In this document: positions 13,546 through 29,596 of the stretch, piece by piece
How positions within the stretch are numbered: position 1 is the stretch's first letter
Layout: every line of letters starts with the position of its first letter
From: Halarcobacter sp.
GTDB taxonomy: Bacteria > Campylobacterota > Campylobacteria > Campylobacterales > Arcobacteraceae
Direction: 5' to 3'
Length of the DNA: 64,000 nucleotides
Assembly: GCA_048571215.1 (NCBI GenBank)
Contig: CP182352.1
Coordinates: 2,656,001-2,720,000 of the forward strand
Translations under genes and position numbers: made by a program
The notes under the pieces: generated by a model
Seen by the model: the letters and a program-made list of their open reading frames with translations, nothing else
Database searches by the model: none
Told to the model about the DNA's origin: nothing

Positions 13546-15021
13546 ATTAAAAAAATTATTTCAAGTAACTTTTTACCTTACATTATCTTTTTTATATTAT
13601 CTTTTTTAATAATCATATCATTTGGCTATACTATGCATAGTGATGGTTGGCGCCATTTAGCTATGGCATTAAATAAAAATGAAATTGGCTCATGGGATAA
13701 AATTTTAATTCATTCTCTTTACAAGAATTATGACCCTTGGTTTATTTGGCATCAATTTTTAAAAATTATTATAATTTTATTTAATAAAGATAATGTACAT
13801 ATTGTTGTAAACCTTATTGTATATTTTTCACTATCTTCTTGGTATTTTTTAACTCTTAAACAATTTGCAAAAATCAATATCTATTTTATTATATTAATCT
13901 CAATTTTTACACCAATTCTAAATGAAAGATATTTTCAACTAAGACCCGATATTGTAATTGGATTACTTATGTTATATCTAATTATAAAAAAAAATATAAT
14001 CACTTATACTATAACAATACTCTTAGCTCCATTATACTATCTCTTTTGGTTCTTTTTAGGATACCTTGCCTTAATTAAAATAGTTTTAAAAGATTATAAA
14101 AGTTTCTTTTATATTTCCATATCTATATTTATTGGATTTTTAATATATTTTCTTTATGATTATGAACAGTATATATATATTTTAAAGCTTGTATTTAGTA
14201 ATGATCAATTAACTTCAAAATTTACGGTAAATGAAAGTTTACCTGTTTTTATACCCTTAGAATTAAAAAATTATATTGGCAGTGCTTCTTTACTCTTTAT
14301 ACTATTTTCAAGTTCAGTATTCTGCTTATATAAGTTAAAAATTAAAAACAAACTGCTTAAATATTTTATTCTCTTTCTACCTTTAATGCTCATTCAAAAT
14401 AGATTTTTTGATTTGCTTCAACCTCTTTTTATCACTGCTTCAATTATAATAAGTATAAAAATCAAAAATTATGTAGATTCATATGGAATAAAAAAACCAA
14501 TTAATCATATAAAAACTTTTATTGATGAGAAAACATATTTTAGTCTTATAAAGAAAAAACATTTCCCAATTTTATTATTTATATTTTTATTAGGCATTTT
14601 TATTTATATATTTATTTCATATAAAAATAAATATACTAATCAATATCAATATATCCTTTCACATAAATTTATTGCTGAAAAAGAATTCCACAATAAACGA
14701 ATTTTTATAAACAAAATGTATACTCTAATGGATGTCTCATTCTTATTTAATCCAACAGCACAATACCTTCCTAACTTTTCTTTAGGTTGGGTTGACTATA
14801 ATACACCAAACAAAAAAATCTATTTCAAAATATTAAGTAGTTATCAAAAAGTTTCACAAAAAGAACTTATTGGTTTTTTAAAACTAAATGAGATAGATTA
14901 TTTTATTATTGATACTAAATTTAAAACTAATTTAACCGTTTCTAATAAAGAAATGAAGCATAATGGTTATAAATTTTATAAAATAATTGATGATTATATA
15001 ATATTTAAGAGAGACAATTAA
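13546..15021 (+). CDS. Putative GT-C-fold membrane glycosyltransferase, paralog 1 (true start uncertain: ATT at 13546, or frameshifted ATG at 13535)
   Basis: Paralog of 16424-17908. The frame stays open upstream of ATG 13633 and encodes the first TM helix; SDGWRHL acidic motif follows TM1; many TMs and a soluble C-terminal domain. Confidence 0.6.
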   Translation: MKKIISSNFLPYIIFFILSFLIIISFGYTMHSDGWRHLAMALNKNEIGSWDKILIHSLYKNYDPWFIWHQFLKIIIILFNKDNVHIVVNLIVYFSLSSWYFLTLKQFAKINIYFIILISIFTPILNERYFQLRPDIVIGLLMLYLIIKKNIITYTITILLAPLYYLFWFFLGYLALIKIVLKDYKSFFYISISIFIGFLIYFLYDYEQYIYILKLVFSNDQLTSKFTVNESLPVFIPLELKNYIGSASLLFILFSSSVFCLYKLKIKNKLLKYFILFLPLMLIQNRFFDLLQPLFITASIIISIKIKNYVDSYGIKKPINHIKTFIDEKTYFSLIKKKHFPILLFIFLLGIFIYIFISYKNKYTNQYQYILSHKFIAEKEFHNKRIFINKMYTLMDVSFLFNPTAQYLPNFSLGWVDYNTPNKKIYFKILSSYQKVSQKELIGFLKLNEIDYFIIDTKFKTNLTVSNKEMKHNGYKFYKIIDDYIIFKRDN

Positions 15022-15024
15022 AAA

Positions 15025-16443
15025 ATGAAGAAAAATGTGATTATTATCGGTGCTGGCCCTGCTGGCTTAACTGCTGCCTATGAATTGCTGAAAACAAAAA
15101 ATTATAATATAACAATTTTAGAAGACTCTGAATATATAGGTGGTATTTCAAAAACCTTTAATCATAATGGAAATCGCATTGATATTGGAGGACATAGATT
15201 TTTTAGTAAAATCAAAAAAGTCAATTCTTGGTGGGATGAAGTTTTAGATGAGAATTTTTTGATAAGAAATAGAAAATCAAGAATCCTTTATGAAAGAGAT
15301 TTTTATGATTATCCTGTAACTTTAAATAAAACAACCATTAAAAATTTAGGCTTAACTAGATTTATTAAAATTGGTTTTTCATATCTAAAAGCAGCTATTT
15401 TTAAAAGAGATGAAAAAACTTTAGAAGATTTTTTTATCAATAGATTTGGGTATGAACTTTATGCTACTTTTTTTAGAGATTATACTGAAAAAGTTTGGGG
15501 TGTTCCTTGTAATAAGATAGATGCACTATTTGGACATCAAAGGATAAAAGGCTTATCTATTAGTTCTGTATTACTACACATGTTAAAAAAATCTTTTGGT
15601 AGTTTAAACTCTAAAAATATAGAAACTTCTTTAATAGAAGAGTTTAAATACCCCAAATATGGTCCTGGTCAACTTTGGGAAAATGTTTCAAAAAAGATCG
15701 AAACTCTAGGTGGAAAGATAATATTTAATGAAAAAGTTGATACATTAAAAATCAAAAAAAACCATACAATAAAAATTAAAACCCAAAACAACTCTTATGA
15801 AGCTGATTTTATCTTCTCATCTATGCCAATCAAAGATTTAATAAACACAATTAAAAAAGCTCCGTCAGATATAAAAAACTTAGCAAATAATTTAGAATAT
15901 AGAGACTTTATAACAGTAGGTCTATTACTTAAAAACTCTAAATTAGATACTTTAAAAGACAATTGGATTTATATTCAAGAATCTGATGTAAAAATAGGAA
16001 GACTTCAAATATTTAATAATTGGTCTCCTTTTTTAGTAAAAGATAAAAATACAACTTGGATAGGATTGGAATACTTTTGTAATGAAAATGATGAACTTTG
16101 GAATATGAAAGAAGAAGAGTTTATCAACTTTGCAATTTCAGAATTAGAAAAATTAGATTTAATAAAAAAAGAGTCTGTAATTGATTCTATTCAATTGAAA
16201 GTAAAAAAAGCCTATCCTTCTTATTTTGGTTCATATGATAGATTTGATGAAATCAAAAAGTATTTAAATACTATAGAAAATCTATTTTGTATAGGAAGAA
16301 ATGGTCAACATAGATACAATAATATGGATCATTCTATGATGACAAGTTTTGAAGCAGTAAAAGCTTTAGAAACAAATAGTTCAAAACAGAACCTTTGGGA
16401 TATAAATACAGAAAAAGAGTACCATGAATCAACTTCTAAATAA
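15025..16443 (+). CDS. FAD-dependent oxidoreductase (HemY/UDP-galactopyranose mutase-like superfamily, GtrA-associated type)
   Basis: [13 protein letters not shown] motif, [36 protein letters not shown]. Confidence 0.85.
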
Positions 16444-17908
16444 TAAATATTTTAATATTTTAATATTCCCATTATTTTTTATTTTTGGTCAAGTAGTATC
16501 AAACTTGATGAATTATACCATGTTTGATGATGGATGGAGACATCTTGCTATGGCATTTTACAAAGATGAGATGGGTAGTTGGGGAGAACTTTTTATTCAC
16601 TCTTTATATAAAGATTATGATCCTTGGTTTATGTGGCATAATCTTTTAAATCTTTTATCAACCATATCATCAAATGATAAAGTGCATATCTTAATAAATG
16701 GTTTTGTTTATGCAGCCTTATCAAGCTGGTTTTATATTGTATTTAAAAAATATTCTAAATTTGATATTTATTTAACAATATTTTTATCGTTAATGCTACC
16801 TATTTTAAACTATCGATATTTTTATCTCAGACCTGATTTATTAAGTGGTTTATTTTTATTATATTTTATGTTAATTCAAAAAAGATACCTTATAGTTTTA
16901 GTTTCTTTAATCTATATGCCATTTTATTATGTATTTTGGTTCTATTTTGGATATTTAGGAATATTAAAACTATTTTTAAAGAAATATAAAGACTTAATAC
17001 TTTTGATTATTCTTTGTATTATTGGTTTTATTTTTCATCTCTCTTATGATTTTAATGGTTTTATTGATACCACAATGAACGTATTAAACAATGATACTCT
17101 ATTGCAAGGTCAATCTGTAGGTGAAAGTAATCCAACTTTTTTCCCTCTATCAATAAAAAACTATTTTGGAACTACAATTTTATTAGTGTTTTTTCTAATG
17201 CTATCTTATCTTTTTTATATTGTATTTAAACCTAAAGATAGATTATTAGAACTTCTGATTTTTTTCGCCCCATTGATTTTATTGCAAGCTAGATTTTACG
17301 CACTTTTATATCCCTTAATCTTAGCCTATGCAGCTATTTTGACTCATAGGTTTTGCAAACTTATCTATGAAAATAGTTTAAGTTATACTATAGATTTAAT
17401 TGTAAACTTTATAAAAAACAGATCATATCTTGGAAATATTCCCAAAAAATATTATAAAACAATTTTAATAATTCTAATCTCTTCAATTTTAATTTTTACA
17501 TTTACTGATAAAATTTTCTCATATAGAAAGTTTAGTAATGATGTAAAAGATTTAAACTTTATTGCTAAAGAAGAGTTTAAAAATAAAAGGATTCTATTTA
17601 CTACAATGAATATATCTTTATATATTAGTATATACAAAAATCCAACAGCAAAATATCTTCCTAGTTGTTCTTTAGGATGGGTTGATTACAAAGATAAAAA
17701 ACTTAAAAATACTTATTTTAATTTAATAACTAATTCAGATAAACTAAATAACCAAGATTTTTTTAAGTTTTTAAAGTATAATAAAATTGATGTAATAATT
17801 GTAGATAAAGATACAAATAATCTTAAGTTTAATAATGTAGAAATAAGCGATTTTGGTTATAAGTTTTATAAATTATATAAAAATAATATAATTTTTATAA
17901 AAAATTAA
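16424..17908 (+). CDS. Putative GT-C-fold membrane glycosyltransferase, paralog 2
   Basis: TM1 followed by DDGWRHL (acidic pair at the GT-C-like catalytic position), LRPD motif, about 11 TMs, C-terminal soluble domain; GtrA context. Confidence 0.65.
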
Positions 17909-17956: not shown

Positions 17957-18154
17957 ATGTTAGATTTCTTAAAAAGAAGATTAAAGTCAGAAAAAGGTGC
18001 TATGGATAAAATCCTTGTTACATTGTTATTAGTTGTTATTGGTGTTGGTCTAGTTGTTGGTCTACAATCGTGGGTTGGATCTCAAAAAAATGCTTTACAA
18101 AACTCAGCAAATAATGTTATAAACAGTGCTAAAAACAACGCAAATAATAGCTAA
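17957..18154 (+). CDS. Flp-type major pilin (atypical motif)
   Basis: 65 aa; basic leader ending SEKG, hydrophobic helix, short polar tail; first gene of the Tad locus with a strong RBS. Confidence 0.85.
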   Translation: MLDFLKRRLKSEKGAMDKILVTLLLVVIGVGLVVGLQSWVGSQKNALQNSANNVINSAKNNANNS

Positions 18155-18165
18155 TATTTTAGAAA

Positions 18166-18196
18166 ATAAGTAGATAAAAATATTTTATCTACTTAT
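18166..18196 (+). terminator. Hairpin between flp1 and flp2 (terminator or mRNA stabiliser)
   Basis: 14-bp inverted repeat ATAAGTAGATAAAA-ata-TTTTATCTACTTAT. Confidence 0.7.
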
Positions 18197-18203
18197 ACTA
18201 ATA

Positions 18204-18398
18204 GTGAATATGAAACTTTATATAAAACTTAAATCACAAAAAGGTGCCATGGATAAAATCCTTGTTACTTTGTTACTTACTATTGTTGCTGTTGTTGCCA
18301 TAATTGGTATTGAACAATGGTCAAGTAGTAAAAAAGATGAGTTAAAAAATCAATCAAACAATACAATAACAAAAATAAAGAATGAAATAAATCAATAA
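18204..18398 (+). CDS. Second Flp-type pilin
   Basis: Paralog of flp1 with identical KGAMDKILVTLLL; start GTG 18204 or ATG 18210. Confidence 0.82.
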   Translation: MNMKLYIKLKSQKGAMDKILVTLLLTIVAVVAIIGIEQWSSSKKDELKNQSNNTITKIKNEINQ

Positions 18399-18830
18399 AT
18401 GATCTTTTCTATATCATTTTATATTTTTTCACTTTTCATTTCATATATTGATTGTAAAAAACGACTTATTCCAAATACTCTTTTGCTTACATTAACTTTT
18501 TTTTTGTTAATTTTTGGTTACTTAGAAAATAAGCTACATATCTATTCTTTTCTTGTATTATTATTAATTTTACTTTTTTTTGTTATAATAGTATTGATAG
18601 TCCCAAAGATGATTTTAGGTGGTGGAGATATAAAGTACTTTATGGTTGTAGCAATATATTTGCAACCTCTTTATTTCCCATTATTTTTACTATTTTGTGG
18701 TATATTTCAATTTATTTTATTGATATATTTTCAAAACATAAAAAAAAGGCGTACAGCTCCAATGGCACCAGCTATAATTTTTGCTGTATTTATAACTGAA
18801 ATAGTTAAAAGCTTAGAAATCTACCTTTAA
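18399..18830 (+). CDS. tadV: Prepilin peptidase, A24 family (TadV/CpaA type, no methyltransferase domain)
   Basis: Two catalytic Asp motifs, IDCKKRLIPN and GGGDIK; PMAPAI C-terminal motif; 143 aa. Confidence 0.9.
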   Translation: MIFSISFYIFSLFISYIDCKKRLIPNTLLLTLTFFLLIFGYLENKLHIYSFLVLLLILLFFVIIVLIVPKMILGGGDIKYFMVVAIYLQPLYFPLFLLFCGIFQFILLIYFQNIKKRRTAPMAPAIIFAVFITEIVKSLEIYL

Positions 18831-18850
18831 ATAGCTCCAAGGAGTCTCTT

Positions 18851-21235
18851 ATGAAAAAAGCAATGATAGAACAGATAATGATAGGTGGTATCCTCTTTAC
18901 CATGCTAACACTATTTGTTGCAACAGTATATGATGAAAAATCTGCAAGAGATAGAACTTATGAATTAAAAACAACAGCACAAGAAGTTTCAATAGGTCTT
19001 GCTAAATACTATGAAGATCAAATGGATATGTGTACAGCTGAAAGTATTGTAACAGAGATATTAAAAAAAACTACTACAGGTCAGTTTTTACTTGATAATA
19101 ATTTGATCTCATTTCAATGGAAAAACTTAAAACCAGATAGTGATGGTGATGGTGTAGGAGATGATGGTGAACCTGATACTATTGTAACTACAATTGCACA
19201 ACATGATTATGATACTTTTTGGTATAAACTTTTTGGTTTAAATAAATTTCAAATTGGTCCTTTTACTGAAACTAAAGAAGTTCAAACACCTAAAAATGTA
19301 AATATTACGTTTGGTGGGCAAAATGCTGGTTATACAAATATGATAGGTACTTATCAATTAGACCAAAACAATTGTGTTATAAATACTCAACTTATTTTAG
19401 CAAATTCAAAGGACAATAGTAAAGTTGGTTCAAAACTTGGGAGTACAATTCAATCACCACCAACTTTTATATTTATCATGCCAAATGGATACCAAGAATT
19501 TAAAGAAAAAGGTTATACTCCCAGTGAAACTGATGTAATTAATATATCAAATCATTGTTTTGGGGCAAACACACAACCTGACTTATCTATAGGTAACACA
19601 TCATTAGGAAGCAATGGTAGAATTTATTTTGAACAAACAGAACTTAATAGTGACAAGTATGAACATATTCAAATTATTCCTGATAGTATTTGGAAAACAT
19701 ATAATGACTATGTAAATGGACAAGGAGATTTTTCGGGACAAGGAACTAAATCGTATGATGATTTTATGAGTTATTGTGAACAGATAAATTCTGACAGTGA
19801 CCCAAGTAATGATATGAATTGTAAAGACGATCCAAATGATGAATACCAATATGCAATGGAAGATTTAGATGATGGTGGAGATGAAGATTTTAATGATATT
19901 TTCCTAAATACAACAAGAATAGCTATACCAAATAAACTTAATGATTTTGAAATAGATCCTCATAATGGGAATATATCATTAACATGTAATAATAATAATA
20001 ATAATAAACCAACTATATCTATTGAAAATTGTCCTGATTCAATAGATGAAGATACAAGTTTTACTATAAATTGGACAGCTTCTGATAGTGATGGAAATGT
20101 TATAACAACTGATGCTGCTGCTGATAATGGTTCTGTGGCAATTAATGGTACTGCAGAAAATGGAACAGTCGGATATACTCCAAATACTAACTATTTTGGT
20201 CAAGATACAATTACTATGCAAACAACTGATAATAGTGATAATAGTACATTTGCATATTGTACTTTTAATGTAATAGAAGTAAATGACCTTCCTACAATAT
20301 CTGGAACACCTATAACCACTGCAGATATTGGGAAAGTTTACTCATTTATTCCTACAGCATCAGATGTAGATGGAGATCCCCTAACATTTTCAATTGAAAA
20401 TAAACCACAATGGGCTTCATTTAACTCTGCAACAGGCCAATTAATTGGTACACCTTACGATTCAGATGCAGGTACATATTCTAGTATTGTGATTAGTGTA
20501 TCAGATGGAAGAGGTGGAACAGCATCTCTTGAACCATTTAATATTTTTGTACCACACTCTGATACAAACCCTAAACTTTTAAGTAATATTCCTGACCAAA
20601 GTGTAACAGAGAAAACTACATTTTCTTATAGTACAAGTCAACATTTTGAAGATCCTAATGGAGATATATTGACATACTCTATAGATCAGTCAGAATATGC
20701 AGGAAATATAAACTCAAATACAGGTTTAATAACTATCAATATACCTGATAATACAGCAGGAGATACAATAACATTAACAGTTAGAGCAACAGATCCAGGA
20801 GGATTAACTGTTGCTGATACATTTGTATTAACAGTTAGTGCTAATACAGAATGTACAATAGATGAAACTGATGACTTTAGTGATGATAATCACGCGTGGT
20901 CGGGTGGAAATAAAACACTTTTATATCACTATAAAATAGATAGAGATACTACTGCCTACAAAACATATGATTTTGGTTCTGGTTGTAAAAATACAAATGT
21001 GTCACTATCTTTTCAATATTATACACCATATTACTGGGAAAATGCTGATAAGTTAAAGTTATATATTAACGACTCATATTCTACAGAATATTCTAGATCA
21101 AATGGTAAATGGACATCAAAATCAATAAATCTACAAACAGATTCAAGCGGTAAACTAAAAGTCGGACTAATGCCTGATTCAAATAAAAATAATGAAATTG
21201 TATATATTGATAATATAAATATTAAAAATCAATAA
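18851..21235 (+). CDS. TadG-like pilin-anchored adhesin with Ca-binding and cadherin/Ig-like repeats
   Basis: Pilin-like N-terminus MKKAMIEQI plus TM; DUF4114-like EDLDDGGDEDFND; repeats ASDSDGN, ASDVDGDPLTFSI, FEDPNGDILTYSI; C-terminal beta-sandwich ending VYIDNINIK. Confidence 0.75.
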   Translation: MKKAMIEQIMIGGILFTMLTLFVATVYDEKSARDRTYELKTTAQEVSIGLAKYYEDQMDMCTAESIVTEILKKTTTGQFLLDNNLISFQWKNLKPDSDGDGVGDDGEPDTIVTTIAQHDYDTFWYKLFGLNKFQIGPFTETKEVQTPKNVNITFGGQNAGYTNMIGTYQLDQNNCVINTQLILANSKDNSKVGSKLGSTIQSPPTFIFIMPNGYQEFKEKGYTPSETDVINISNHCFGANTQPDLSIGNTSLGSNGRIYFEQTELNSDKYEHIQIIPDSIWKTYNDYVNGQGDFSGQGTKSYDDFMSYCEQINSDSDPSNDMNCKDDPNDEYQYAMEDLDDGGDEDFNDIFLNTTRIAIPNKLNDFEIDPHNGNISLTCNNNNNNKPTISIENCPDSIDEDTSFTINWTASDSDGNVITTDAAADNGSVAINGTAENGTVGYTPNTNYFGQDTITMQTTDNSDNSTFAYCTFNVIEVNDLPTISGTPITTADIGKVYSFIPTASDVDGDPLTFSIENKPQWASFNSATGQLIGTPYDSDAGTYSSIVISVSDGRGGTASLEPFNIFVPHSDTNPKLLSNIPDQSVTEKTTFSYSTSQHFEDPNGDILTYSIDQSEYAGNINSNTGLITINIPDNTAGDTITLTVRATDPGGLTVADTFVLTVSANTECTIDETDDFSDDNHAWSGGNKTLLYHYKIDRDTTAYKTYDFGSGCKNTNVSLSFQYYTPYYWENADKLKLYINDSYSTEYSRSNGKWTSKSINLQTDSSGKLKVGLMPDSNKNNEIVYIDNINIKNQ

Positions 21236-21243
21236 ATATATCG

Positions 21244-21275
21244 CTAAAGAGATATAAAGATTTATATCTCTTTAG
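21244..21275 (+). terminator. Hairpin after the adhesin gene; a TATAAT box near 21316 suggests a second promoter for the assembly genes
   Basis: 15-bp inverted repeat CTAAAGAGATATAAA-ga-TTTATATCTCTTTAG. Confidence 0.7.
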
Positions 21276-21355
21276 TTAATTAAAATCAATTAAATGTAAA
21301 TTTATTTTATTTTATTATAATATAAAATTAAGTTTGTACCCAAAGAAGGAACAAA

Positions 21356-22951
21356 ATGGATTATAAAACGTACCAAACATATACAGATATACAAGGTGCC
21401 TTAGATATTAGACGAGAAAATGTTATAGAAATATTAAACTTATTTGTACTTATTTCAAATATTGGTAAACTAACTTTTTTAAAATACGATTTTAAATTTA
21501 ATAACTTTGTGTATAACTTTACAATTGATGGACATAATACAATAGATGATGATATACATTTTATGAATAACAAGTTCTCTATTGTATTAAAAGAGGGTGA
21601 TATTATCTATGGTAAAATAACCTTCAACAAAAGAATCTGGTATAGGCAAGTTTTAAAAGAGTTATTAAAAAAAGCAAAAGTATCATTAAGAAATATTTTT
21701 GAGATTGAAAAAGATCTACTTTCACAAAACACCCCATTAAACATCTATATAATAACAGATAAAAATACAATCAAATTTGCAAATAAATTACAAACAAACC
21801 TTGATATTCTACTAAATGCAGAAATAAGTATTTTGCATGATATCACAAGAATTACAGAAAAACTAAATGCAAAAAATTCTAAAAATATTATAATCTATAC
21901 TATTCAAAATGCAGAATTAATAAATGATGATAAACAAATCATTGAAAACTTTAATGAGTTTGTAATAGTGATTGGTCCAAATGACCATAACCTTTCACTT
22001 ATGTGTGGACAACTAAATATACACAGTTATGTTTCAATTAGTGAATTCTCACCTGAACATGTCAAAAACCTTATTTTAGACACAAAATATAAACTTATTA
22101 ATAAAAATAAACAAGATAATAAAATTTTTGCAATAACTGGAATCTCTGGTGGTATTGGAACAACTACAGTGTCAATGAATACAGCAGATATAATTGCTAA
22201 AAACTCTCCAAATAAAAATGTTTTATATGTGGATTTGTCAACTACAAAAGCTATTAGTAATCTATTTTTATCACAAAATCCTGTACCAAACCATTCAATT
22301 ATAGACTTAGTTAATTTTGGAGATTTTAATATCCAGAAAAATCTTGATTTGGGATTAGTTAAGGTTAGAGAAAATTTTTATGCTATCAATGGAATACAAA
22401 AACATATTGATAGAGACCTCTTAGAAAAAGATACTTTTATAGAAAAACTTTTAGATTATCTAATAAAAGCTAGTGAACATTTTAATGTAATAATTATAGA
22501 TACTGGTGCTGCTGATGCCTCAGCTCTTAAAAGTACTATTTATGATTTGGTAAATGAAATCTGGATATTAACAGAAATGACCCTACCCCATGTATCAAAA
22601 CTAAAAACCTTTTATTCACTTATGAAAAGAGCTGGACTAAAAGATAAAGTTAGTTTTATAGTAAATAGAGTTAACTCTTTAAATGAAATCTCATCTTCAG
22701 ATTTTGATTCTATCATGAATACAAGTGCAAAAGATGAAAAACTTGTATATTTAAAGATACCAAATGATTATGAAACCCTAGGAAAATGTTGGAATTACTG
22801 TGAATTGGCAAATCAAGTTTCTAGTACTTCACCTTTTGTTAAAACCATTGAAGAGATAATCTTGCAAAAAGATTTGATTGGGGATAAGATTGAAAAAACA
22901 AAAGTAAAAAAAAGTTTATTTTCATTTTTAGCAAATAAGGACAAAAGTTGA
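21356..22951 (+). CDS. tadZ: TadZ/CpaE-like pilus localisation protein (MinD/ParA-like, with N-terminal extension)
   Basis: ITGISGGIGTTT deviant P-loop, VLYVDL, IIIDTG, IVNR, IPND; immediately before the TadA ATPase. Confidence 0.82.
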   Translation: MDYKTYQTYTDIQGALDIRRENVIEILNLFVLISNIGKLTFLKYDFKFNNFVYNFTIDGHNTIDDDIHFMNNKFSIVLKEGDIIYGKITFNKRIWYRQVLKELLKKAKVSLRNIFEIEKDLLSQNTPLNIYIITDKNTIKFANKLQTNLDILLNAEISILHDITRITEKLNAKNSKNIIIYTIQNAELINDDKQIIENFNEFVIVIGPNDHNLSLMCGQLNIHSYVSISEFSPEHVKNLILDTKYKLINKNKQDNKIFAITGISGGIGTTTVSMNTADIIAKNSPNKNVLYVDLSTTKAISNLFLSQNPVPNHSIIDLVNFGDFNIQKNLDLGLVKVRENFYAINGIQKHIDRDLLEKDTFIEKLLDYLIKASEHFNVIIIDTGAADASALKSTIYDLVNEIWILTEMTLPHVSKLKTFYSLMKRAGLKDKVSFIVNRVNSLNEISSSDFDSIMNTSAKDEKLVYLKIPNDYETLGKCWNYCELANQVSSTSPFVKTIEEIILQKDLIGDKIEKTKVKKSLFSFLANKDKS

Positions 22952-24549
22952 GAAACTTAAGAAATCTAATAGCCGAAGAGGAACAGAAAAAAGAGATAAA
23001 AAAACAATCTTTTAGTGTGGAAAAAGCTCAAGAAGATGAGTCTTCAAATGATTTAGCCCCTATAAAAAAGATAGAACAGTTAAAACTAAAAAGTAGACAT
23101 ACAGGTCTAAAGTTTCCAGAAATATATTTGAATAAGAAACTTTTAGATTTAGCTTATGAGATAAACGACACTTTTATGTTAAATCTAAAATCTGATAAGA
23201 AAATCACCAGAGAATCTTTAGAAGAGGTTTTACCAGAGTTTATTTTATCATTTAAGCCAGCCAAAAACCTATCTAAAGAGTACTTAGATGATATAAAAGA
23301 GTTTATTATAAACAATGTTATTGGATATGGTCCAATTACAGCCTTATTTGATATTGCAAAAGATGGGTTGAATGATGTTATTGTAAATACAAGAGAATAT
23401 ATTGATATTATATATCAAGGTAAAACAATTGAGACTCCATTTACCTTTAGAAGTGAGGATGAATTAAGAAAAGTAATTGATAAGATGCTTGCTGAAAATA
23501 ATAGGAAAATTGATGAAGCACACCCTATTATGTCAAGTAAATTAAAAGATGGTTCCAGAGTAGAGGTTCAAATACCACCTATTGCAGCTAATGATGGAAG
23601 CTGTGTAACCATAAGAAAGTTCAACGATTTACCATTGTTATTGGAGTTTTTAATAGATTCTGGTCAAATGGATTACAAAATGGCATATTTCTTATTAAAA
23701 GTTGCAAAAGGAAAATGTAATATTATCGTTTCTGGTGGTACTTCAAGTGGTAAAACTACATTTTTAAATGCCATGACTAGGTTTATTGATGAAAATGAAC
23801 AACTAATGGTTATAGAAGATACAAAAGAGATGCAACCTCAAATGCCATGTCACTCTATTAGACAATATGAAGCTAGAATGGCAAATGAAGAGGGAAAAGG
23901 TGCTATTACCTTAGACTTTTTATTACGTTCAGCACTTAGATCATCTCCAAGAAGAATTGTAGTTGGTGAGTGTAGAGGTGGGGAAATAGTTGTTATGCTT
24001 AATGCCATGAATACAGGACATCCAGGTTCAATGACTACAGTGCATGCCGATAATACAAAAGAAGCCTTAGTAAGAATTGAAAATATGTATCTAGAAGCTA
24101 GACCAACAGCTAATATCAACTTTATTAGAGCTCAAGTTGTATCTGCTATTGATATAATTATACAACTAGTAAGATTTCCTGATGGTTCAAGAAAACTAAT
24201 CACTATCTCAGAAGTTGAAAAAAGAATAGAAGACAATGCTGTAATATCTTTAAATAATATCTTTGAATTTAAAAGAGATACTAGTGATATGACAAAAACT
24301 AGAGGAAGTTTTGAGATTGTATCAACTCCTACTAGAACAGTGACTCAAATGAATATGTTTGGTGTAGATATAGATATGGGAATTTTTAATAAAGAGTTTG
24401 AGATGCCAAAATCTATGTTGATTGAAGAGTTAGAAAAAGATTTACCAACTAAAATGTGTGGTTGGAGACCTGATTATATGGATATTTTTCTAGAAAAAGA
24501 TCCTCAACTATTCCATAAATGGCCACATTTCCAAAAAGTAGAGAATTAA
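22948..24549 (+). CDS. tadA: TadA/CpaF pilus assembly ATPase
   Basis: GYGPI, IRKF, Walker A GGTSSGKTT, IED..E, IVVGECRGGE, AMNTGHPGSMTTVHA. Confidence 0.96.
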   Translation: MRNLRNLIAEEEQKKEIKKQSFSVEKAQEDESSNDLAPIKKIEQLKLKSRHTGLKFPEIYLNKKLLDLAYEINDTFMLNLKSDKKITRESLEEVLPEFILSFKPAKNLSKEYLDDIKEFIINNVIGYGPITALFDIAKDGLNDVIVNTREYIDIIYQGKTIETPFTFRSEDELRKVIDKMLAENNRKIDEAHPIMSSKLKDGSRVEVQIPPIAANDGSCVTIRKFNDLPLLLEFLIDSGQMDYKMAYFLLKVAKGKCNIIVSGGTSSGKTTFLNAMTRFIDENEQLMVIEDTKEMQPQMPCHSIRQYEARMANEEGKGAITLDFLLRSALRSSPRRIVVGECRGGEIVVMLNAMNTGHPGSMTTVHADNTKEALVRIENMYLEARPTANINFIRAQVVSAIDIIIQLVRFPDGSRKLITISEVEKRIEDNAVISLNNIFEFKRDTSDMTKTRGSFEIVSTPTRTVTQMNMFGVDIDMGIFNKEFEMPKSMLIEELEKDLPTKMCGWRPDYMDIFLEKDPQLFHKWPHFQKVEN

Positions 24550-24552
24550 AAT

Positions 24553-25482
24553 ATGGATAATACTATCATAATACTAATATTTGCAATCCCTATATTAACT
24601 ATTTTAGTTATAGTTTTAGGGTATAAATATTATTATGAACTTGATAGAAGAAGTAAAATTATAACTTTACTAAAAAAAGATAATAATGAGATATTAGATG
24701 AAAAAAAAAGAAAAAGATTTACAAAAAAAGAGCGAAATTGGCTTGGAAAAAAACTTGCATATGCAGGTTTTCCCCATCCTATCGCAGAGATAATTTATAT
24801 TCTAACCTCGATTATTTTTGGATTCTTAGCTGCAACTTTTATAAACTTTGTAATTCCGAATCCTATAGTGTTTGCTTTAAGCTTTTTAGCTTTTTGTTTT
24901 TTCCCTTTACTTGTGTTAAAAAAAATTATAGATGGTAGGCAAGAAGATTTTAACTTTGGATTAAAAGTTATCATTGATAAAGTAACTAGTATGATGAAAA
25001 GTGGTGTAGGTTTTGAACAAGCTTTAAAAAAAGCAGTTGCTACATCAAGGTCTAAACTTGCTAAAGAGACTTTTGAAATATATTTAAATGAAAAAGATAT
25101 TATAGGTGAAGATAAAGCATTTCAAAAGATGTTTACAGTTGTAGAATCAAGGGAACTTAGAATTTTTTACCTAACAATTTCTATTGGTAGGCAATCTGGT
25201 GGTAAGTTTTCAAATACTTTAGATAAACTAAGAAAAGCTTTACATGCCCAAGGGGAAATAAAACAAGAGATAACTGCCTCAACAAAAGAGGTAAAGGTAG
25301 GAAGTTATATGATTATAGGTTTAGTTATATTTATCTATAAGATGTTAAATAGTTCTTTAGATGGAGTTTTAGATGAACACTTTTTTGGCACAAGTGAAGG
25401 GCAGATACAAATGTTTTTTATAATTTGTTGGGTTACCTTTGGGGTGTTTGTAAATAGTATGTTATCAAAAATAAAGGCATAA
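24553..25482 (+). CDS. tadB: TadB inner-membrane platform protein (T2SSF family)
   Basis: TM pattern, MKSGVGFEQAL, RQSGGKFSNTL; follows tadA. Confidence 0.88.
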   Translation: MDNTIIILIFAIPILTILVIVLGYKYYYELDRRSKIITLLKKDNNEILDEKKRKRFTKKERNWLGKKLAYAGFPHPIAEIIYILTSIIFGFLAATFINFVIPNPIVFALSFLAFCFFPLLVLKKIIDGRQEDFNFGLKVIIDKVTSMMKSGVGFEQALKKAVATSRSKLAKETFEIYLNEKDIIGEDKAFQKMFTVVESRELRIFYLTISIGRQSGGKFSNTLDKLRKALHAQGEIKQEITASTKEVKVGSYMIIGLVIFIYKMLNSSLDGVLDEHFFGTSEGQIQMFFIICWVTFGVFVNSMLSKIKA

Positions 25483-25483
25483 A

Positions 25484-26326
25484 ATGAGTCCAATATTTTT
25501 CCTTCCAATTTTAATTGTAATTATAGGTATAATACTTTGGTATTTTTATGATACAAGAGGGACTAAAAAGAAAATCATTTTACTTTCAAAACTTGATGCC
25601 CTTGCAATTATTGACCAACAAAAAAATGTAAAAAGTAAAAAAGAGACTGAACAGAGTACTGATTTAAATCTACAGCTAATACAAGCTGGTCTTACAAAAA
25701 AAGAGTACAACGAAGGCAAGCTGGTATTTGCTTTAATAGGAATTATAATTGGAGTTTCTTTTCCTGTATTTTTTTCTACAAAAATTGGGATAATTGGTGT
25801 TGTTGTAGGGCTTATAGCAATAATATTTGGTGGGAAAATGTATCTTTCAATCTCTAAAACTGAAAGAACCGAAAAAATCAATAATGATTTAGGTGTATTT
25901 TTAGATTTGATTAATGTTATTTTAGAAGCTGGTGGCGGTTTAAAAAATGCTTTTTTTACTGTATCCACAAGAGCTCATAATATTTTAGACGAAGAGTTAT
26001 TAAAAGAAGTAGCTATTTTAGAGTATGAGATGACAAACTACTCAACAAAAAAAGCCTATGAAAACTTAAAAAAAAGAGTTGATTCAGATGATGTTTCAAA
26101 AATAGTTGATTTTTTAATTTTAAGTGAAGAAGCTGGTATTGGTGTAAAAAATATCTTTTCAACTCAAAGTGATGAGATGAGACAAGAAAAATTTTATAAA
26201 ATTAAAGGTAAAGTTAATACACTTAATATGTATTTAATGTTAGTAATATTTATCTTTGTAATTCCTGCATTAGGAGCATTTATTGTTTTTCCAATGCTTG
26301 CAGGAAAATTAGATTTTGGCATGTAA
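25484..26326 (+). CDS. tadC: TadC inner-membrane platform protein (T2SSF family)
   Basis: LIQAG, FLDLINVILEAGGGL, SEEAG...QSDEMR, C-terminal TM. Confidence 0.88.
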   Translation: MSPIFFLPILIVIIGIILWYFYDTRGTKKKIILLSKLDALAIIDQQKNVKSKKETEQSTDLNLQLIQAGLTKKEYNEGKLVFALIGIIIGVSFPVFFSTKIGIIGVVVGLIAIIFGGKMYLSISKTERTEKINNDLGVFLDLINVILEAGGGLKNAFFTVSTRAHNILDEELLKEVAILEYEMTNYSTKKAYENLKKRVDSDDVSKIVDFLILSEEAGIGVKNIFSTQSDEMRQEKFYKIKGKVNTLNMYLMLVIFIFVIPALGAFIVFPMLAGKLDFGM

Positions 26327-26335
26327 AGGAATAAT

Positions 26336-27499
26336 ATGAAGTTCGATAAACAGTTAGCTATAATTTTAGTTTTAATATCACTACTATTGTCAGCAATAGG
26401 TATCTCTATATATTTTTATAATAAAAATGAGCAAACAAAAAAAGAGAATAATCAATTAGTTAAAATATATGTAGCTAAAAATAATATTAAACAAAATACT
26501 CTTATAAAAGATAAAGATATAAAAGAAACAACAGTAGCTAAACAGTATGTATTGACAAAACCTTTACTAAAACAAGAGATTATAAATAAATATGCAATAG
26601 AAAATATCTATGCAAATGAGCAATTTTTAAAAGAAAAACTTTCAGTAACACCTCAAATAAAAAGACAATTAAGTAAAATATTAGACTATAACTACTCAAG
26701 TTACAATATGTCTTTTAAATTATTTAAAAATCCAAACTATTCTATACAACCAAATGATGTAATAAAAATTATTTCAGTATATCCTATGGATTCAGAAAAA
26801 AATAACTATAAAGTTAGATATGTAGCAAAAAATATTAAAGTCTTAGGTTTCTTAAGTGATGGGAAAGAGATAGAAAAAGCAATATACAAAAAAAAGGTAA
26901 AGAGGTTTGAAAAAAAACAACAAATTGAAGAGATTGTAGATATAAAATCAGATGAAATGATTTTAGATATTAAAGAGGATGTATTATTATCTTTGATTAG
27001 TGACTTCAACAAAGGTAACCAACTTTGGATGGTTAAATCAAAAATGGAAAATGATACAAAAGATGTTAAAAAAGTAACTAAAATTGATAAATCAAAACTA
27101 AATAAAACAAAAGTTAATAAAAGTTATAAACCTAAAAAAGTATATTACCCTATAACTTGGTATAAACCAGCTACTACTTATGAAACAAAAACAGCTATGA
27201 TTACTTATGCAAATGACTCTAAGAAAACTGATATCAAAAAAGCAAAAGTTGCATCTGATTACCAAAAAGAGTGTAGTGAAACTAATAAGTTATTATTAGT
27301 AAAATCTAGAACTGTTTACCTAAGAGAAGCTCCATCAATAAGAGCAAAGATTGATAAAAAAATTGCTAAGAACTATATCTTACCTTATGTATCAATTTCT
27401 AAAATAAACCCAAATTGGTATATGATATGTGATGAGACTTATGTACAAAGAAAAGATGTAGAAGTTATAACATATGATGATTATAAAAGGTTAAAATAA
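26336..27499 (+). CDS. rcpC: RcpC/CpaB alignment protein (SAF domain) with C-terminal SH3-like domain
   Basis: N-terminal TM, YVAKNNIKQNTLI SAF motif, IQPNDVIKII, VAKNIKVLG; C-terminal VYLREAPS...NWY. Confidence 0.78.
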   Translation: MKFDKQLAIILVLISLLLSAIGISIYFYNKNEQTKKENNQLVKIYVAKNNIKQNTLIKDKDIKETTVAKQYVLTKPLLKQEIINKYAIENIYANEQFLKEKLSVTPQIKRQLSKILDYNYSSYNMSFKLFKNPNYSIQPNDVIKIISVYPMDSEKNNYKVRYVAKNIKVLGFLSDGKEIEKAIYKKKVKRFEKKQQIEEIVDIKSDEMILDIKEDVLLSLISDFNKGNQLWMVKSKMENDTKDVKKVTKIDKSKLNKTKVNKSYKPKKVYYPITWYKPATTYETKTAMITYANDSKKTDIKKAKVASDYQKECSETNKLLLVKSRTVYLREAPSIRAKIDKKIAKNYILPYVSISKINPNWYMICDETYVQRKDVEVITYDDYKRLK

Positions 27500-27502
27500 A
27501 AT

Positions 27503-27931
27503 ATGGAAAAAAAACAGATGAAAAAAGCAGCCATAGAAAATATTCTAATATGGATGGTACTGTTTACAAGTTTTGCTACTTTCTTTTTTTTTATAATTAA
27601 CTATGCAACCATATTAAGAGTACAGGATAATATGATTGCTATATCAGATTATGGAGCAAATTATGTTGCAGCAAATGGAATAGGTGATAATATATCTACA
27701 GATCTAAACAGAATAAAAGTAGATGGTATAAATACTATAAGTAGTGCAGATACTGGAGTTATTTGTAATGAAGTTTCAAATGTACCTTTAAACTTTACAG
27801 TAATATTCAAAACAGAAACAACAAATACTTCATATAAGTTTTATGGAGACAGTTTATCGGCAACTAAAGCAGTATTCAACCAACAAAGTGGTAATACAAT
27901 AACATGTACACTAAAAATAACCTTGAAGTAG
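27503..27931 (+). CDS. TadE/TadF-like minor pilin (start may be 27518)
   Basis: KKAAIENI plus hydrophobic helix, ISDYGANY, two Cys in the C-terminal domain. Confidence 0.72.
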   Translation: MEKKQMKKAAIENILIWMVLFTSFATFFFFIINYATILRVQDNMIAISDYGANYVAANGIGDNISTDLNRIKVDGINTISSADTGVICNEVSNVPLNFTVIFKTETTNTSYKFYGDSLSATKAVFNQQSGNTITCTLKITLK

Positions 27932-27940
27932 GAGAGAGTA

Positions 27941-29596
27941 ATGAGATTTTTTAAACTGAAGTTAATTTTTTTATTTTTATCATTTATTACATTAAATGCT
28001 TATGATATTAATGATAAGGTAATTTACCAAAAAGATTTTGAAAATAAAACAATTTATTTACCATTAAATAACTATAGAACGTTAATATTTGAAGATAGAA
28101 TTAAAAGTATTCAATTAACAAATAGTGAAAATATAACAGCTGAGTTTGTAGATAATAAAATCAGACCTCTGCAAATGTTAAAAATTCTAGGTAAAAATAT
28201 TGGAAGTGAAAGTGCAGTAGTAATCTTAGAAAATGATAAACTAATACAAATAAACTTTAGTATCATGAAAAATTTAGACAATATTATCACCATAGTTAAA
28301 AATACTTACCCTAATTTAATTGTAGAACAAGCAAATGATACTTTAGTATTAAAAGGATATGTTAAAGATTATAAAGAAAAAGATTTAGTAATAGAGATAT
28401 TCAAAAAAGCTGGTGTTGATATAGAAAAAAATTTAGTTAATATGATTGAAACCTCTAGTCCATCAAAAATGATAAAAATTAAAATGTATGCAGTTGAAAT
28501 AAATAATGATAATGGTATAGATTTAAAGAATAATTGGACATTATCAAGCAAAAATTATATGAAAGTTAACGGAGATAATGGATATGTAAACTATCCATCA
28601 AGTTCTTATGGTAGGCCATATATAGAAAGAGATGTTTATTATGATGATGTAGTCAGTATGAGTGATCCAAACTATAATCCTGATTTAACAGGTACAATTA
28701 TACGAAAAGAGATAGAATTTTTAGTTGATAATCAGAAGAATTATCAAAATGTAAATAACCAAAGGAATGAAGGTCTTGATGATGCTTTACAAAATATCAT
28801 CTCTAGTGCAGTTACATTAACAGGAGGATTGACAGGAGTTGCTAACTATTTAGGTAAAAACTTTAATGCAGGCTTAATGCTAAACTATCTTTCAACGGAA
28901 GGAGTTGCAAATGTACTAGATGAGACTACATTGTTAACTTTAGAGAATAAAAATGCCACTTTTCACGCAGGTGGTACTATTATGATTAAAACCCAAACAA
29001 CATCAGCTGAAGGACTCCCTAACTCTACTATTGAACCTATTGATTATGGTTTACAATTAGATTTCAAAGCAAAAAATATAATGAAAAACGAATATATTGA
29101 TTTAGAGATAGATACCAAGTCTACACAAATAGATTGGACAAATCAAGTTGATGGAATACCAAGTTTTCTTGAAAAGAAAATAAAAACAAATGTATTAGCA
29201 CAAAATGGGCATACTATTGTAATTGGTGGACTAGTAAATAATGAAAATTCAAATGACATAAGTAAGATTCCTCTTTTAGGTGATATTCCTATATTAGGAT
29301 TTTTATTTAAAAGTAAATCGTTTAAAGAAGGGAAAAGTGAACTTGTATTTTTTGTAACTCCTGAAATAGTAAGTCCAGAAAATAATAATCAAGAAGAGTT
29401 ATTAAAAAAGACTTCAAAAAAGATTTTAGATACTTCAAGATACAAAAAAAGTCTATTATTTGATAATGATGAAGATAAAAAAAGTGAAAAAAAGAAAAAA
29501 GAAAAAGTCTTGCCAGAAACTACGCCTAATACTGACACTTCAACAACAAAACCTCTAAATCACAAAGAGATTGTAGATAAAATTTATGGTAGATAA
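27941..29596 (+). CDS. rcpA: RcpA/CpaC outer-membrane secretin
   Basis: Signal peptide, N-domain, BON-like LVLKGYV, secretin signature IVIGGL...KIPLLGDIPILGFLFKS...ELVFFVTPEIV. Confidence 0.93.
   Translation: MRFFKLKLIFLFLSFITLNAYDINDKVIYQKDFENKTIYLPLNNYRTLIFEDRIKSIQLTNSENITAEFVDNKIRPLQMLKILGKNIGSESAVVILENDKLIQINFSIMKNLDNIITIVKNTYPNLIVEQANDTLVLKGYVKDYKEKDLVIEIFKKAGVDIEKNLVNMIETSSPSKMIKIKMYAVEINNDNGIDLKNNWTLSSKNYMKVNGDNGYVNYPSSSYGRPYIERDVYYDDVVSMSDPNYNPDLTGTIIRKEIEFLVDNQKNYQNVNNQRNEGLDDALQNIISSAVTLTGGLTGVANYLGKNFNAGLMLNYLSTEGVANVLDETTLLTLENKNATFHAGGTIMIKTQTTSAEGLPNSTIEPIDYGLQLDFKAKNIMKNEYIDLEIDTKSTQIDWTNQVDGIPSFLEKKIKTNVLAQNGHTIVIGGLVNNENSNDISKIPLLGDIPILGFLFKSKSFKEGKSELVFFVTPEIVSPENNNQEELLKKTSKKILDTSRYKKSLLFDNDEDKKSEKKKKEKVLPETTPNTDTSTTKPLNHKEIVDKIYGR

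What the first reader, a model, noticed from the sequence alone, without database searches (positions are those of the whole stretch)
17957..27931. All four pilin-like proteins share a non-canonical processing motif with the acidic residue at +3 instead of Glu+5/Tyr+6
Seen: Flp1 SEKG|AMDKILV, Flp2 SQKG|AMDKILV, adhesin MKKA|MIEQIMI, TadE-like MKKA|AIENILI. Consensus K-[GA]|[AM]-[MI]-[DE]-[KQN]-I-[LM]-[VI]. Known: Flp pilins carry G|xxxxEY and TadE/F carry G|xxxxEF; Glu+5 is the conserved type IV pilin residue, and K-[GA] cleavage sites resemble archaeal class III signal peptides. Inference: this lineage shifted the acidic residue two positions toward the N-terminus in major and minor pilins alike, with a co-adapted TadV. 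That implies altered filament packing, and standard Flp HMMs may miss these pilins. The cleavage position is assumed from the G/A rule.
Basis: partly seen in the sequence, partly recalled or inferred. Interest (0 to 1): 0.8.

Follow-up and report, generated by a model that had tools for sequence, protein, structure and literature searches.

The report
Tad pilus lacking the pilin glutamate
Arcobacter-family bacteria carry an adhesion-pilus gene cluster whose four subunits all lack the glutamate that normally marks bacterial pilins, so the standard profiles tested miss them; the acidic residue they share instead is real but is probably not that glutamate moved.

Summary
Observation confirmed: flp1, flp2, a TadG-like adhesin and a TadE-like gene of a complete tad locus read K-[GA]|x-x-[DE]. 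A loose version of the motif hits only these 4 of 10,552 ORFs in the genome. The acid is kept in 120/120 major-pilin and 120/120 TadE homologues and 30/34 TadG homologues. Flp_Fap and TadE profiles miss them.

Interpretation partly supported. The sister Sulfurimonas-type system has G|MSGV, one residue shorter, with no acid (0/120), and its Ser+2 aligns with Asp+3 (98.9%). Acid+3 major pilins also occur inside Pfam Flp1_like (4 of 5 over cut-off), though their TadEs keep Glu5. Best reading: this clade lost Glu5/Tyr6 and has an archaeal-like N-terminus, and Asp+3 stands at the Ser/Thr2 position. A shifted Glu5 is less likely but not excluded. Cleavage site and TadV co-adaptation are untested.

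The scan noted Glu5-less Tad pilins before on other DNA (unchecked notes), not this lineage. New variant of Tad; interest 0.5.

The parts
17957..18154 (+). flp1, 65-aa major prepilin; 14-aa leader, Gly-1 at 17996-17998, Asp+3 at 18005-18007
   Evidence: AGGAG upstream; 338 homologues; no Flp_Fap hit
18204..18398 (+). flp2, 64-aa paralogue (GTG start), Gly-1 at 18243-18245, Asp+3 at 18252-18254
   Evidence: 48% identical to Flp1
18399..18830 (+). tadV, short A24 prepilin peptidase with both catalytic-motif aspartates (YID, GGGDIK)
   Evidence: PF01478 46.4 bits, cut-off 26.5; alignment
18851..21235 (+). TadG/CpaL-like 794-aa adhesin with pilin N-terminus (Ala-1 at 18860-18862, Glu+3 at 18869-18871) and Ig/cadherin-like domains
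   Evidence: Big_9, He_PIG, Cadherin_5 over cut-off; homologue N-termini; the TadG label is inferred from position and N-terminal profile
21356..22951 (+). tadZ-like MinD/ParA-type protein
   Evidence: AAA_31 E 1e-4, minD E 5e-6, both under cut-off; position before tadA
22948..24549 (+). tadA/cpaF assembly ATPase
   Evidence: PF00437 149.6 bits; best plasmid hits are CpaF at 40-46% identity
24553..25482 (+). tadB platform protein
   Evidence: one T2SSF domain over cut-off
25484..26326 (+). tadC platform protein
   Evidence: one T2SSF domain over cut-off
26336..27499 (+). rcpC/cpaB-like protein
   Evidence: TIGR03177 E 4.5e-7, under cut-off; SAF domain weak
27503..27931 (+). TadE-like minor pilin (Ala-1 at 27527-27529, Glu+3 at 27536-27538); start may be the second ATG
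   Evidence: no Pfam hit; model with a 52-residue N-terminal helix and small alpha/beta head, pLDDT 84.8; Atlas TM 0.62 to a cluster that is 86% TadE
27941..29596 (+). rcpA secretin
   Evidence: PF00263 146.7 bits

Best explanation
This is a divergent Tad (type IVc) pilus shared by Arcobacteraceae and Sulfurimonas-type Campylobacterota, in which the pilins have lost the Flp motif (Glu5/Tyr6). SHOWN: the gene set, the conserved N-termini, the missed profiles, and the one-residue offset between the two sister families. INFERRED: TadV cuts after the conserved Gly (majors) or Ala (minors). TadA/B/C extract the subunits, the TadG-like adhesin and TadE-like pilin form the tip, and Flp1/2 polymerise behind it through RcpA. 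The helices pack mainly by hydrophobic contacts, as archaeal pilins without Glu5 do. Asp/Glu+3 is not a relocated Glu5. It is the Arcobacteraceae form of the polar residue that is Ser+2 in the Sulfurimonas type, and probably Thr/Ser2 in other type IV pilins, displaced by one extra N-terminal residue. Its likeliest job is to bind the N-terminal amine of the neighbouring subunit, as Thr2 does in the Caulobacter Tad filament, and so set the register that Tyr6 and Glu5 help set there.
For: Complete tad gene set. Sister system KG|MSGVLVALLL against KG|AMDKILVTLLL: ungapped offset +1 scores 45.5 against -2.1 for the next best; hhalign 98.9% with D3 on S2. S+2 in 120 of 120 and no acid in the first eight mature residues in 120 of 120, so the clade keeps the system without any acid. 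The two families form one TadA clade (SH-aLRT 100). TadE offset against canonical TadE is best at +2 (7.6, against -4.7 at -2). Best PDB sequence hit of the pilin profile is the archaeal filament core Iho670 (3j1r, E 0.0026), with Ile+5 on archaeal residue 4. In Flp1_like loci the Glu5-less majors are also one residue longer than Glu5-bearing ones (hhalign 96.4%) and sit nested among them, so Glu5 loss has precedent. G|A register: TadE homologues have V/F/I/Y two places before the acid in 107 of 120, which cannot be a -1 residue. Literature passages: Thr2 H-bonds to the neighbour's N-terminal nitrogen and Tad packing resembles archaeal pili (PMC10710030).
Against: Against canonical Flp the register is unresolved: offsets +1 (-0.4) and -2 (-1.6) nearly tie in one set, and gapped hhalign puts D/E+3 on Glu5 for Flp and for TadE, at only 8% and 5% probability. 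The direction of change between the two families is not rooted. The apical TadG-like subunit also keeps the acid (30 of 34), which a neighbour-binding role does not obviously need. The Iho670 match is weak and covers a hydrophobic helix. PMC11067988 (passages) says Glu5 and Tyr6 are needed for Tad assembly in the systems tested. No expression, processing or filament data exist here.
Confidence: 0.5

Rival explanations
1. One reading: Glu5 moved to +3 by loss of two residues in major and minor pilins and still does Glu5's job; the Sulfurimonas type then lost one more residue and the acid.
For: Gapped hhalign places D/E+3 on Glu5 for Flp and TadE (probability under 10%). Offset -2 is a near tie against one canonical Flp set. 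The acid is almost invariant.
Against: It needs compensating insertions of 3-4 residues downstream. The closest relatives put Ser on this column. TadG, which normally lacks Glu5 (PMC13533445 passages), has the acid too. None of 118 profile hits has G-x4-E-[YF].
Confidence: 0.18
2. D/E+3 is mainly a handling tag: TadV or TadA/B/C read it, which keeps Tad pilins apart from the canonical Glu5 pilins and second peptidase of the same cell. This can hold together with the best explanation.
For: The acid is in all four substrates at the same distance from -1, including the apical one. The genome has a second A24 peptidase of 263 aa and 8 canonical F-[ST]-x-x-E pilins among 11 hits of an E+5 scan.
Against: TadV looks ordinary. 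The Sulfurimonas type has no acid. Glu5 is dispensable for processing in tested systems (PMC4471445 passages).
Confidence: 0.2
3. The major pilins are cut one residue later (KGA|MDK), giving Asp+2, in exact register with Sulfurimonas Ser+2 and with Ala at -1 in all four substrates; the shared '+3' would then be partly an artefact of numbering.
For: The residue after Gly is A/S/G in 59 of 60 representatives (set chosen by a pattern that allowed A,S,G,V,L). Minors have Ala-1 in 116 of 120. Three second copies lack a leader and start at Met-Asp/Glu/Asn (L015, L019, L166).
Against: Gly is invariant (120 of 120) and homologous to the Sulfurimonas Gly-1. TadE homologues with KKG|AIDQ share the local sequence of majors and must be cut after Gly by family register. 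Val or Leu follows the Gly in two sequences.
Confidence: 0.1
4. The shared motif is chance, or the proteins are not processed pilins.
For: No pilin profile over cut-off; no significant fold match for the TadE-like model.
Against: 4 of 10,552 ORFs, all in the tad locus; conserved gene order in relatives; lollipop model.
Confidence: 0.02

Closest known systems
Tad/type IVc pilus (Caulobacter PilA/Cpa, Aggregatibacter Flp1/TadV)
   Same: Gene set flp-tadV-tadZABC-rcpC-rcpA, short all-helical major pilin, basic leader ending in Gly, short A24 peptidase.
   Different: No Glu5/Tyr6 in any subunit; one TadE-like and one TadG-like gene; TadA on a very long branch, about 2.5 changes per site from all other TadA sampled; pilin profiles not met.
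Pfam Flp1_like (PF16982) Tad loci, probably Bacillota (taxon from the Atlas note, not shown for these contigs)
   Same: Major pilins without Glu5, some with D/E+3 (G|ASDIVA, G|AAEIVA) or G|LSGVVVA like the Sulfurimonas type.
   Different: Their TadE-like genes keep Glu (8 at +5 and 1 at +6, of 9 listed in the five acid+3 loci); the window's pilins do not pass PF16982; shared origin neither shown nor rejected (AU p 0.13).
Archaeal class III pilins (Iho670; FlaFind rule)
   Same: [KRDE][GA][ALIFQMVED][ILMVTAS] is met by all four sites (rule from PMC4307647 passage; match read from the sequence); hydrophobic +5; best PDB sequence hit.
   Different: No globular head on the major pilin; bacterial RcpA/RcpC; the likeness may be convergent.
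Canonical Tad of Campylobacterota families f2/f3 (unnamed handles)
   Same: Same order, TadA about 41% identical.
   Different: G|VTAIEY pilins that pass Flp_Fap and Glu5 TadE/F; a separate TadA clade.

Membership tests
Tad/type IVc system | TadA ATPase followed by two single-domain platform proteins | tested here: met
   PF00437 and two PF00482 hits over cut-off
Tad/type IVc system | Short A24 peptidase with two catalytic Asp, no methylase domain | tested here: met
   143 aa, PF01478 46.4 bits, both Asp motifs align
Tad/type IVc system | Secretin RcpA | tested here: met
   PF00263 146.7 bits
Tad/type IVc system | TadZ and RcpC | tested here: inconclusive
   Right kind of hit and position, but under the curated cut-offs
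Tad/type IVc system | Short (40-60 aa mature) helical major pilin in the locus | tested here: met
   51- and 50-aa predicted mature products
Tad/type IVc system | TadV-dependent processing and filament formation | not testable with these tools
   needs experiment
Flp pilin (PF04964 Flp_Fap) | Glu+5 and Tyr+6 | tested here: not met
   Ile+5, Leu+6; 0 of 118 profile hits with G-x4-E-[YF]
Flp pilin (PF04964 Flp_Fap) | Profile score over 32.2 bits | tested here: not met
   0 of 30 members at E<=1; none in the genome while the Caulobacter control rings
Flp1_like (PF16982) | Profile score over 33.5 bits | tested here: not met
   No hit for the window's pilins; 1 of 30 members at E 9e-4
TadE (PF07811) | G|xxxxE[FA] motif and profile score | tested here: not met
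   0 of 16 members; none in the genome, control rings
TadE (PF07811) | Pilin fold: long N-terminal helix plus small beta head | tested here: inconclusive
   Model fits; Atlas TM 0.62 to a TadE cluster; PDB pilins only at Z 3.4-3.9 among unrelated rows, e.g. FimA Z 3.9, rmsd 4.7, 101 aligned
TadG/CpaL tip pilin | No Glu+5; large inserted adhesin domains | tested here: met
TadG/CpaL tip pilin | C-terminal beta-strand completes the pilin domain | not tested
   feature from PMC13533445 passages; the adhesin was not modelled
PilFind bacterial pilin rule | [GAS]-[uncharged]4-[DE] before the hydrophobic segment | tested here: not met
   No match at the cleavage region of any of the four; one off-target match at residue 32 of Flp2
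Archaeal class III signal (FlaFind 1.2 core) | [KRDE][GA][ALIFQMVED][ILMVTAS] | tested here: met
   KGAM, KGAM, KAMI, KAAI read against the rule; the program itself was not run

The most novel reading that the evidence does not exclude
Arcobacteraceae and Sulfurimonas carry an undescribed, deep-diverging Tad clade that builds a filament with no Glu5/Tyr6 in any subunit and an archaeal-type core, possibly keeping the state from before the Flp motif. Arcobacteraceae then added an Asp/Glu+3 to all four subunits that acts as a private code for TadV or the motor and supplies the N-terminal counter-charge. The two sister systems would be a natural with-acid and without-acid pair for testing what Glu5 is for in Tad pili.
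Probability: 0.2. Interest if true: 0.75.

Novelty: new variant of a known kind. Interest (0 to 1): 0.5.

Why it matters
Glu5 is treated as the hallmark of bacterial type IV pilins, and two Caulobacter Tad structures describe its role differently (PMC10710030 and PMC11067988, passages). Here a Tad clade found in 62 of 184 Arcobacteraceae genomes and 27 of 251 genomes of the sister family has no Glu5 in the major or minor pilins examined, in one form with an acid at +3 and one with none. That makes the question directly testable. It also shows an annotation gap: the pilins pass no pilin profile tested, and the NCBI/UniRef names shown for them read 'hypothetical', so the system may be undercounted in marine and vent Campylobacterota. 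The interest is capped because Glu5-less Tad majors already sit inside Pfam Flp1_like and in archaea, and nothing here is shown by experiment.

Tried and rejected
Cleavage two residues earlier: -1 would be E/Q/D in majors (120 of 120) and K in the minors; rejected.

Motif unique to this lineage: rejected for major pilins.

TadV co-adaptation: an alignment of 16 chosen peptidases plus 30 search hits (one repeated the window's own) showed nothing distinctive by eye; not evidence either way.

Fold search of the TadE-like model: no Foldseek match at E<=0.001 and no VIA match at Z>=5.

Origin of the system: no archaeal ATPase could be fetched (the plasmid listings showed none), so the TadA trees are unrooted and the claim of a deep or archaeal-like branch is untested. 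AU test for a common origin with Glu5-less Flp1_like loci was inconclusive (p 0.131).

Expression: no RNA holder listed. Promoter scan was at chance level (8 against 7.3). Cluster look-up gave a name for only 1 of 10 distant hits. The genome search with PF16982 rang in no control, so it is uninformative. Two phylum hits at E about 5e-4 (G240, G269) were dropped as noise; G269's is a canonical FTALE pilin.

Literature: searches (Arcobacter+tad+Flp+pilin) gave 0 papers; two gave only the Osedax epibiont study, which mentions a TAD pilus in Sulfurospirillum without pilin motifs (passages). Subscription journals are not covered, Tomich 2006 (TadV) was not held, and no supplements were read, including the pilin alignments of PMC10710030 and the system tables of PMC6668835, which may bear on novelty. 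No complex prediction was run.
Full report
1. The observation. They lie in a complete tad locus: flp1, flp2, tadV (PF01478, 46.4 bits), a 794-aa Ig/cadherin-domain adhesin, a TadZ-like protein, tadA, tadB, tadC, an RcpC-like protein, a 142-aa gene and the secretin rcpA. Named relatives are Arcobacteraceae; the nearest named TadA is from a Halarcobacter record at 90% identity. In the whole genome a loose acid+3 pattern followed by a membrane segment hits 4 of 10,552 ORFs, these four. A Glu+5 scan gives 11 hits, 8 of them ordinary F-[ST]-x-x-E pilins elsewhere in the genome. The patterns were written after the fact, so conservation matters more. Gly-1, Ala+1 and Asp+3 are each in 120 of 120 listed major-pilin homologues, D/E+3 is in 120 of 120 TadE-like homologues, and in 30 of 34 TadG-like N-termini (counted by eye; the 35th row is the Sulfurimonas type). 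These word-seeded searches favour motif-bearing hits. The whole-library profile search gave 118 hits: 62 with G-x-x-[DE], 25 called from the internal Met with D/E, 18 one residue shorter, 13 others, and none with G-x4-E-[YF].

2. Profiles miss them. Flp_Fap matched 0 of 30 family members and TadE 0 of 16. Genome searches with both found nothing while the Caulobacter control rang. The PilFind core (PMC3244431, passages) is absent at the cleavage region. The archaeal FlaFind core (PMC4307647, passage) fits all four. The TadE-like protein models as a long helix with a small alpha/beta head (pLDDT 84.8), with TM 0.62 to a TadE cluster but no significant PDB match.

3. Cleavage site (inferred). A cut two residues earlier would need E, Q, D or K at -1 and is rejected. 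G|A is favoured: Gly is invariant, and in TadE homologues the residue two before the acid is V/F/I/Y in 107 of 120 while the residue three before is A or G in 120 of 120. It is fed by the small residue after Gly and by three leaderless second copies that start at that Met. I give it about 0.1.

4. The sister system changes the reading. The same pilin profile finds 62 of 184 genomes of the window's family and 27 of 251 of a sister family f7, whose named homologues are Sulfurimonas. All 26 distinct f7 rows read KG|MSGV, EG|MSGV, RG|MSGV or KG|LSGV. One f7 genome (G761) instead carries the Arcobacteraceae type on a short contig (identical sequences were collapsed), and one f7 hit is truncated. 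Among 120 homologues, Ser+2 and Gly+3 are invariant and none has an acid in the first eight mature residues. The two types differ by one residue after Gly, with Asp+3 on Ser+2 (offset +1, 45.5 against -2.1; hhalign 98.9%). The f7 TadE- and TadG-like genes seen (4 TadE; 4 TadG plus the start of a fifth) also lack an N-terminal acid. Both families form one TadA clade on a very long branch. So this clade keeps the system with or without the acid, and what unites it is the loss of Glu5/Tyr6.

5. Is the acid a shifted Glu5? A two-residue deletion predicts that downstream columns move by -2. Ungapped profile scores instead favour +1 for majors against canonical Flp, +2 for TadE against canonical TadE, and +2 for TadG. 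These scores are low, and against the canonical Flp set without the f2/f3 rows, +1 (-0.4) and -2 (-1.6) nearly tie. Gapped hhalign does put the acid on Glu5, at 8% and 5% probability. The comparison sets were small and hand-picked (3 rows failed their pattern and were left out). The clear alignment is the one with the sister family. Canonical TadG has no Glu5 (PMC13533445, passages), so the adhesin's acid is an addition. I therefore rate the shift model at about 0.18, not excluded.

6. Is the motif unique? Not for major pilins. A TadA search of metagenomes kept the best 80 of 312 loci, 77 of them outside this clade (not a random sample). In 16 of these the Flp-sized pilin has no Glu5: 5 with D/E+3, 8 with Asn+3 and 3 with G|LSGV. 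Four of the 5 and 7 of the 8 pass the Pfam Flp1_like cut-off, none of the 3. These loci nest among Glu5-bearing Flp1_like loci. Their taxon is probably Bacillota (Atlas note). In the five acid+3 loci the TadE-like genes keep Glu (8 at +5, 1 at +6, of 9 listed). What stays unusual in my sample is that the minor pilins lost Glu5 too and share the major's acid. A common origin with the Flp1_like loci is neither shown nor rejected (AU p 0.131). Three earlier notes of this scan describe Glu5-less Tad pilins in other genomes, one with an acid at +2/+3 in a cassette of mini-pilins and larger pilin-like proteins. I did not check them. Look-ups by sequence, by relatives and by taxon words found nothing for this lineage.

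7. How it most likely works. Shown: the gene set, the motifs, the offsets. Inferred from Tad biology (PMC10191384, PMC6668835, passages): TadV processing, TadA/B/C assembly, a TadG/TadE tip, export through RcpA, surface adhesion. In the Caulobacter filament Thr2 bonds to the neighbour's N-terminal nitrogen, Tyr6 sits under Ala1, and packing resembles archaeal pili, where Glu5 is not conserved (PMC10710030, passages). A second structure gives Glu5 and Tyr6 a hydrogen-bond network (PMC11067988, passages). The best PDB sequence match of this family is an archaeal filament core (3j1r, E 0.0026). I infer an archaeal-like hydrophobic core in which Ser+2 (Sulfurimonas type) or Asp+3 (Arcobacteraceae) supplies the N-terminal polar contact (0.5). 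The presence of the acid in the apical subunit, and of a second peptidase and canonical pilins in the same cell, keeps open a role as a handling tag (0.2). TadV itself shows ordinary motifs.

8. Papers seen: passages only of PMC4471445, PMC3244431, PMC10710030, PMC10470745, PMC11067988, PMC10191384, PMC6668835, PMC13533445, PMC12075869 and PMC4307647; no supplements. Searches listed no paper that describes these pilins (most listed papers were seen as title and abstract start only); most subscription journals are outside the library. The labels TadG-like, TadE-like and TadZ-like are my inference from position and weak profile hits.

9. Verdict. Interest 0.5.

Noticed in passing
L063:14662-16722, L066:9290-11413, L079:6551-8675: In the Sulfurimonas type the TadG position holds two genes: a roughly 90-aa pilin helix and a separate 550-590-aa protein with what looks like an ordinary signal peptide, which weakly matches the body of Arcobacteraceae TadG (best E 6e-4). 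It looks like a split tip adhesin.
   Followed up: partly
L015:10234-10380, L019:10275-10415, L166: Second flp copies with no leader peptide that start at Met-Glu/Asn/Asp; 25 of 118 profile hits are also called from this Met, some perhaps by miscalled starts.
   Followed up: partly
window 13633-17908: Two related multi-pass membrane proteins (both with DGWRHLAMA) flank an oxidoreductase directly upstream of flp1; similar genes precede flp in L007 and L015. They could be a glycosylation module for the pilin; not scanned against any library.
   Followed up: no
window 18851-21235; L003, L008, L044, L045: The TadG-like adhesin varies from about 315-360 aa to about 800 aa between relatives, with a conserved N-terminal pilin part.
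   Followed up: no
L042:6560-6754; L017:8838-9818 (- strand); L043: Orphan flp (KG|AIENILV) away from the tad locus; tadG moved behind rcpA on the other strand in L017 and not seen in the L043 locus.
   Followed up: no
L068-L073: Families f2 and f3 of the same order carry an unrelated canonical Tad locus with G|VTAIEY pilins (8 of the 401 genomes sampled).
   Followed up: partly
G761:C167:75-507: One genome of family f7 has the Arcobacteraceae-type flp pair on a short contig: transfer or mis-binning.
   Followed up: no
L098, L119, L152: Metagenomic Tad loci outside Campylobacterota-type TadA have majors reading G|LSGVVVA, which align with the Sulfurimonas type without gaps (hhalign 91%, only 3 sequences).
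   Followed up: partly
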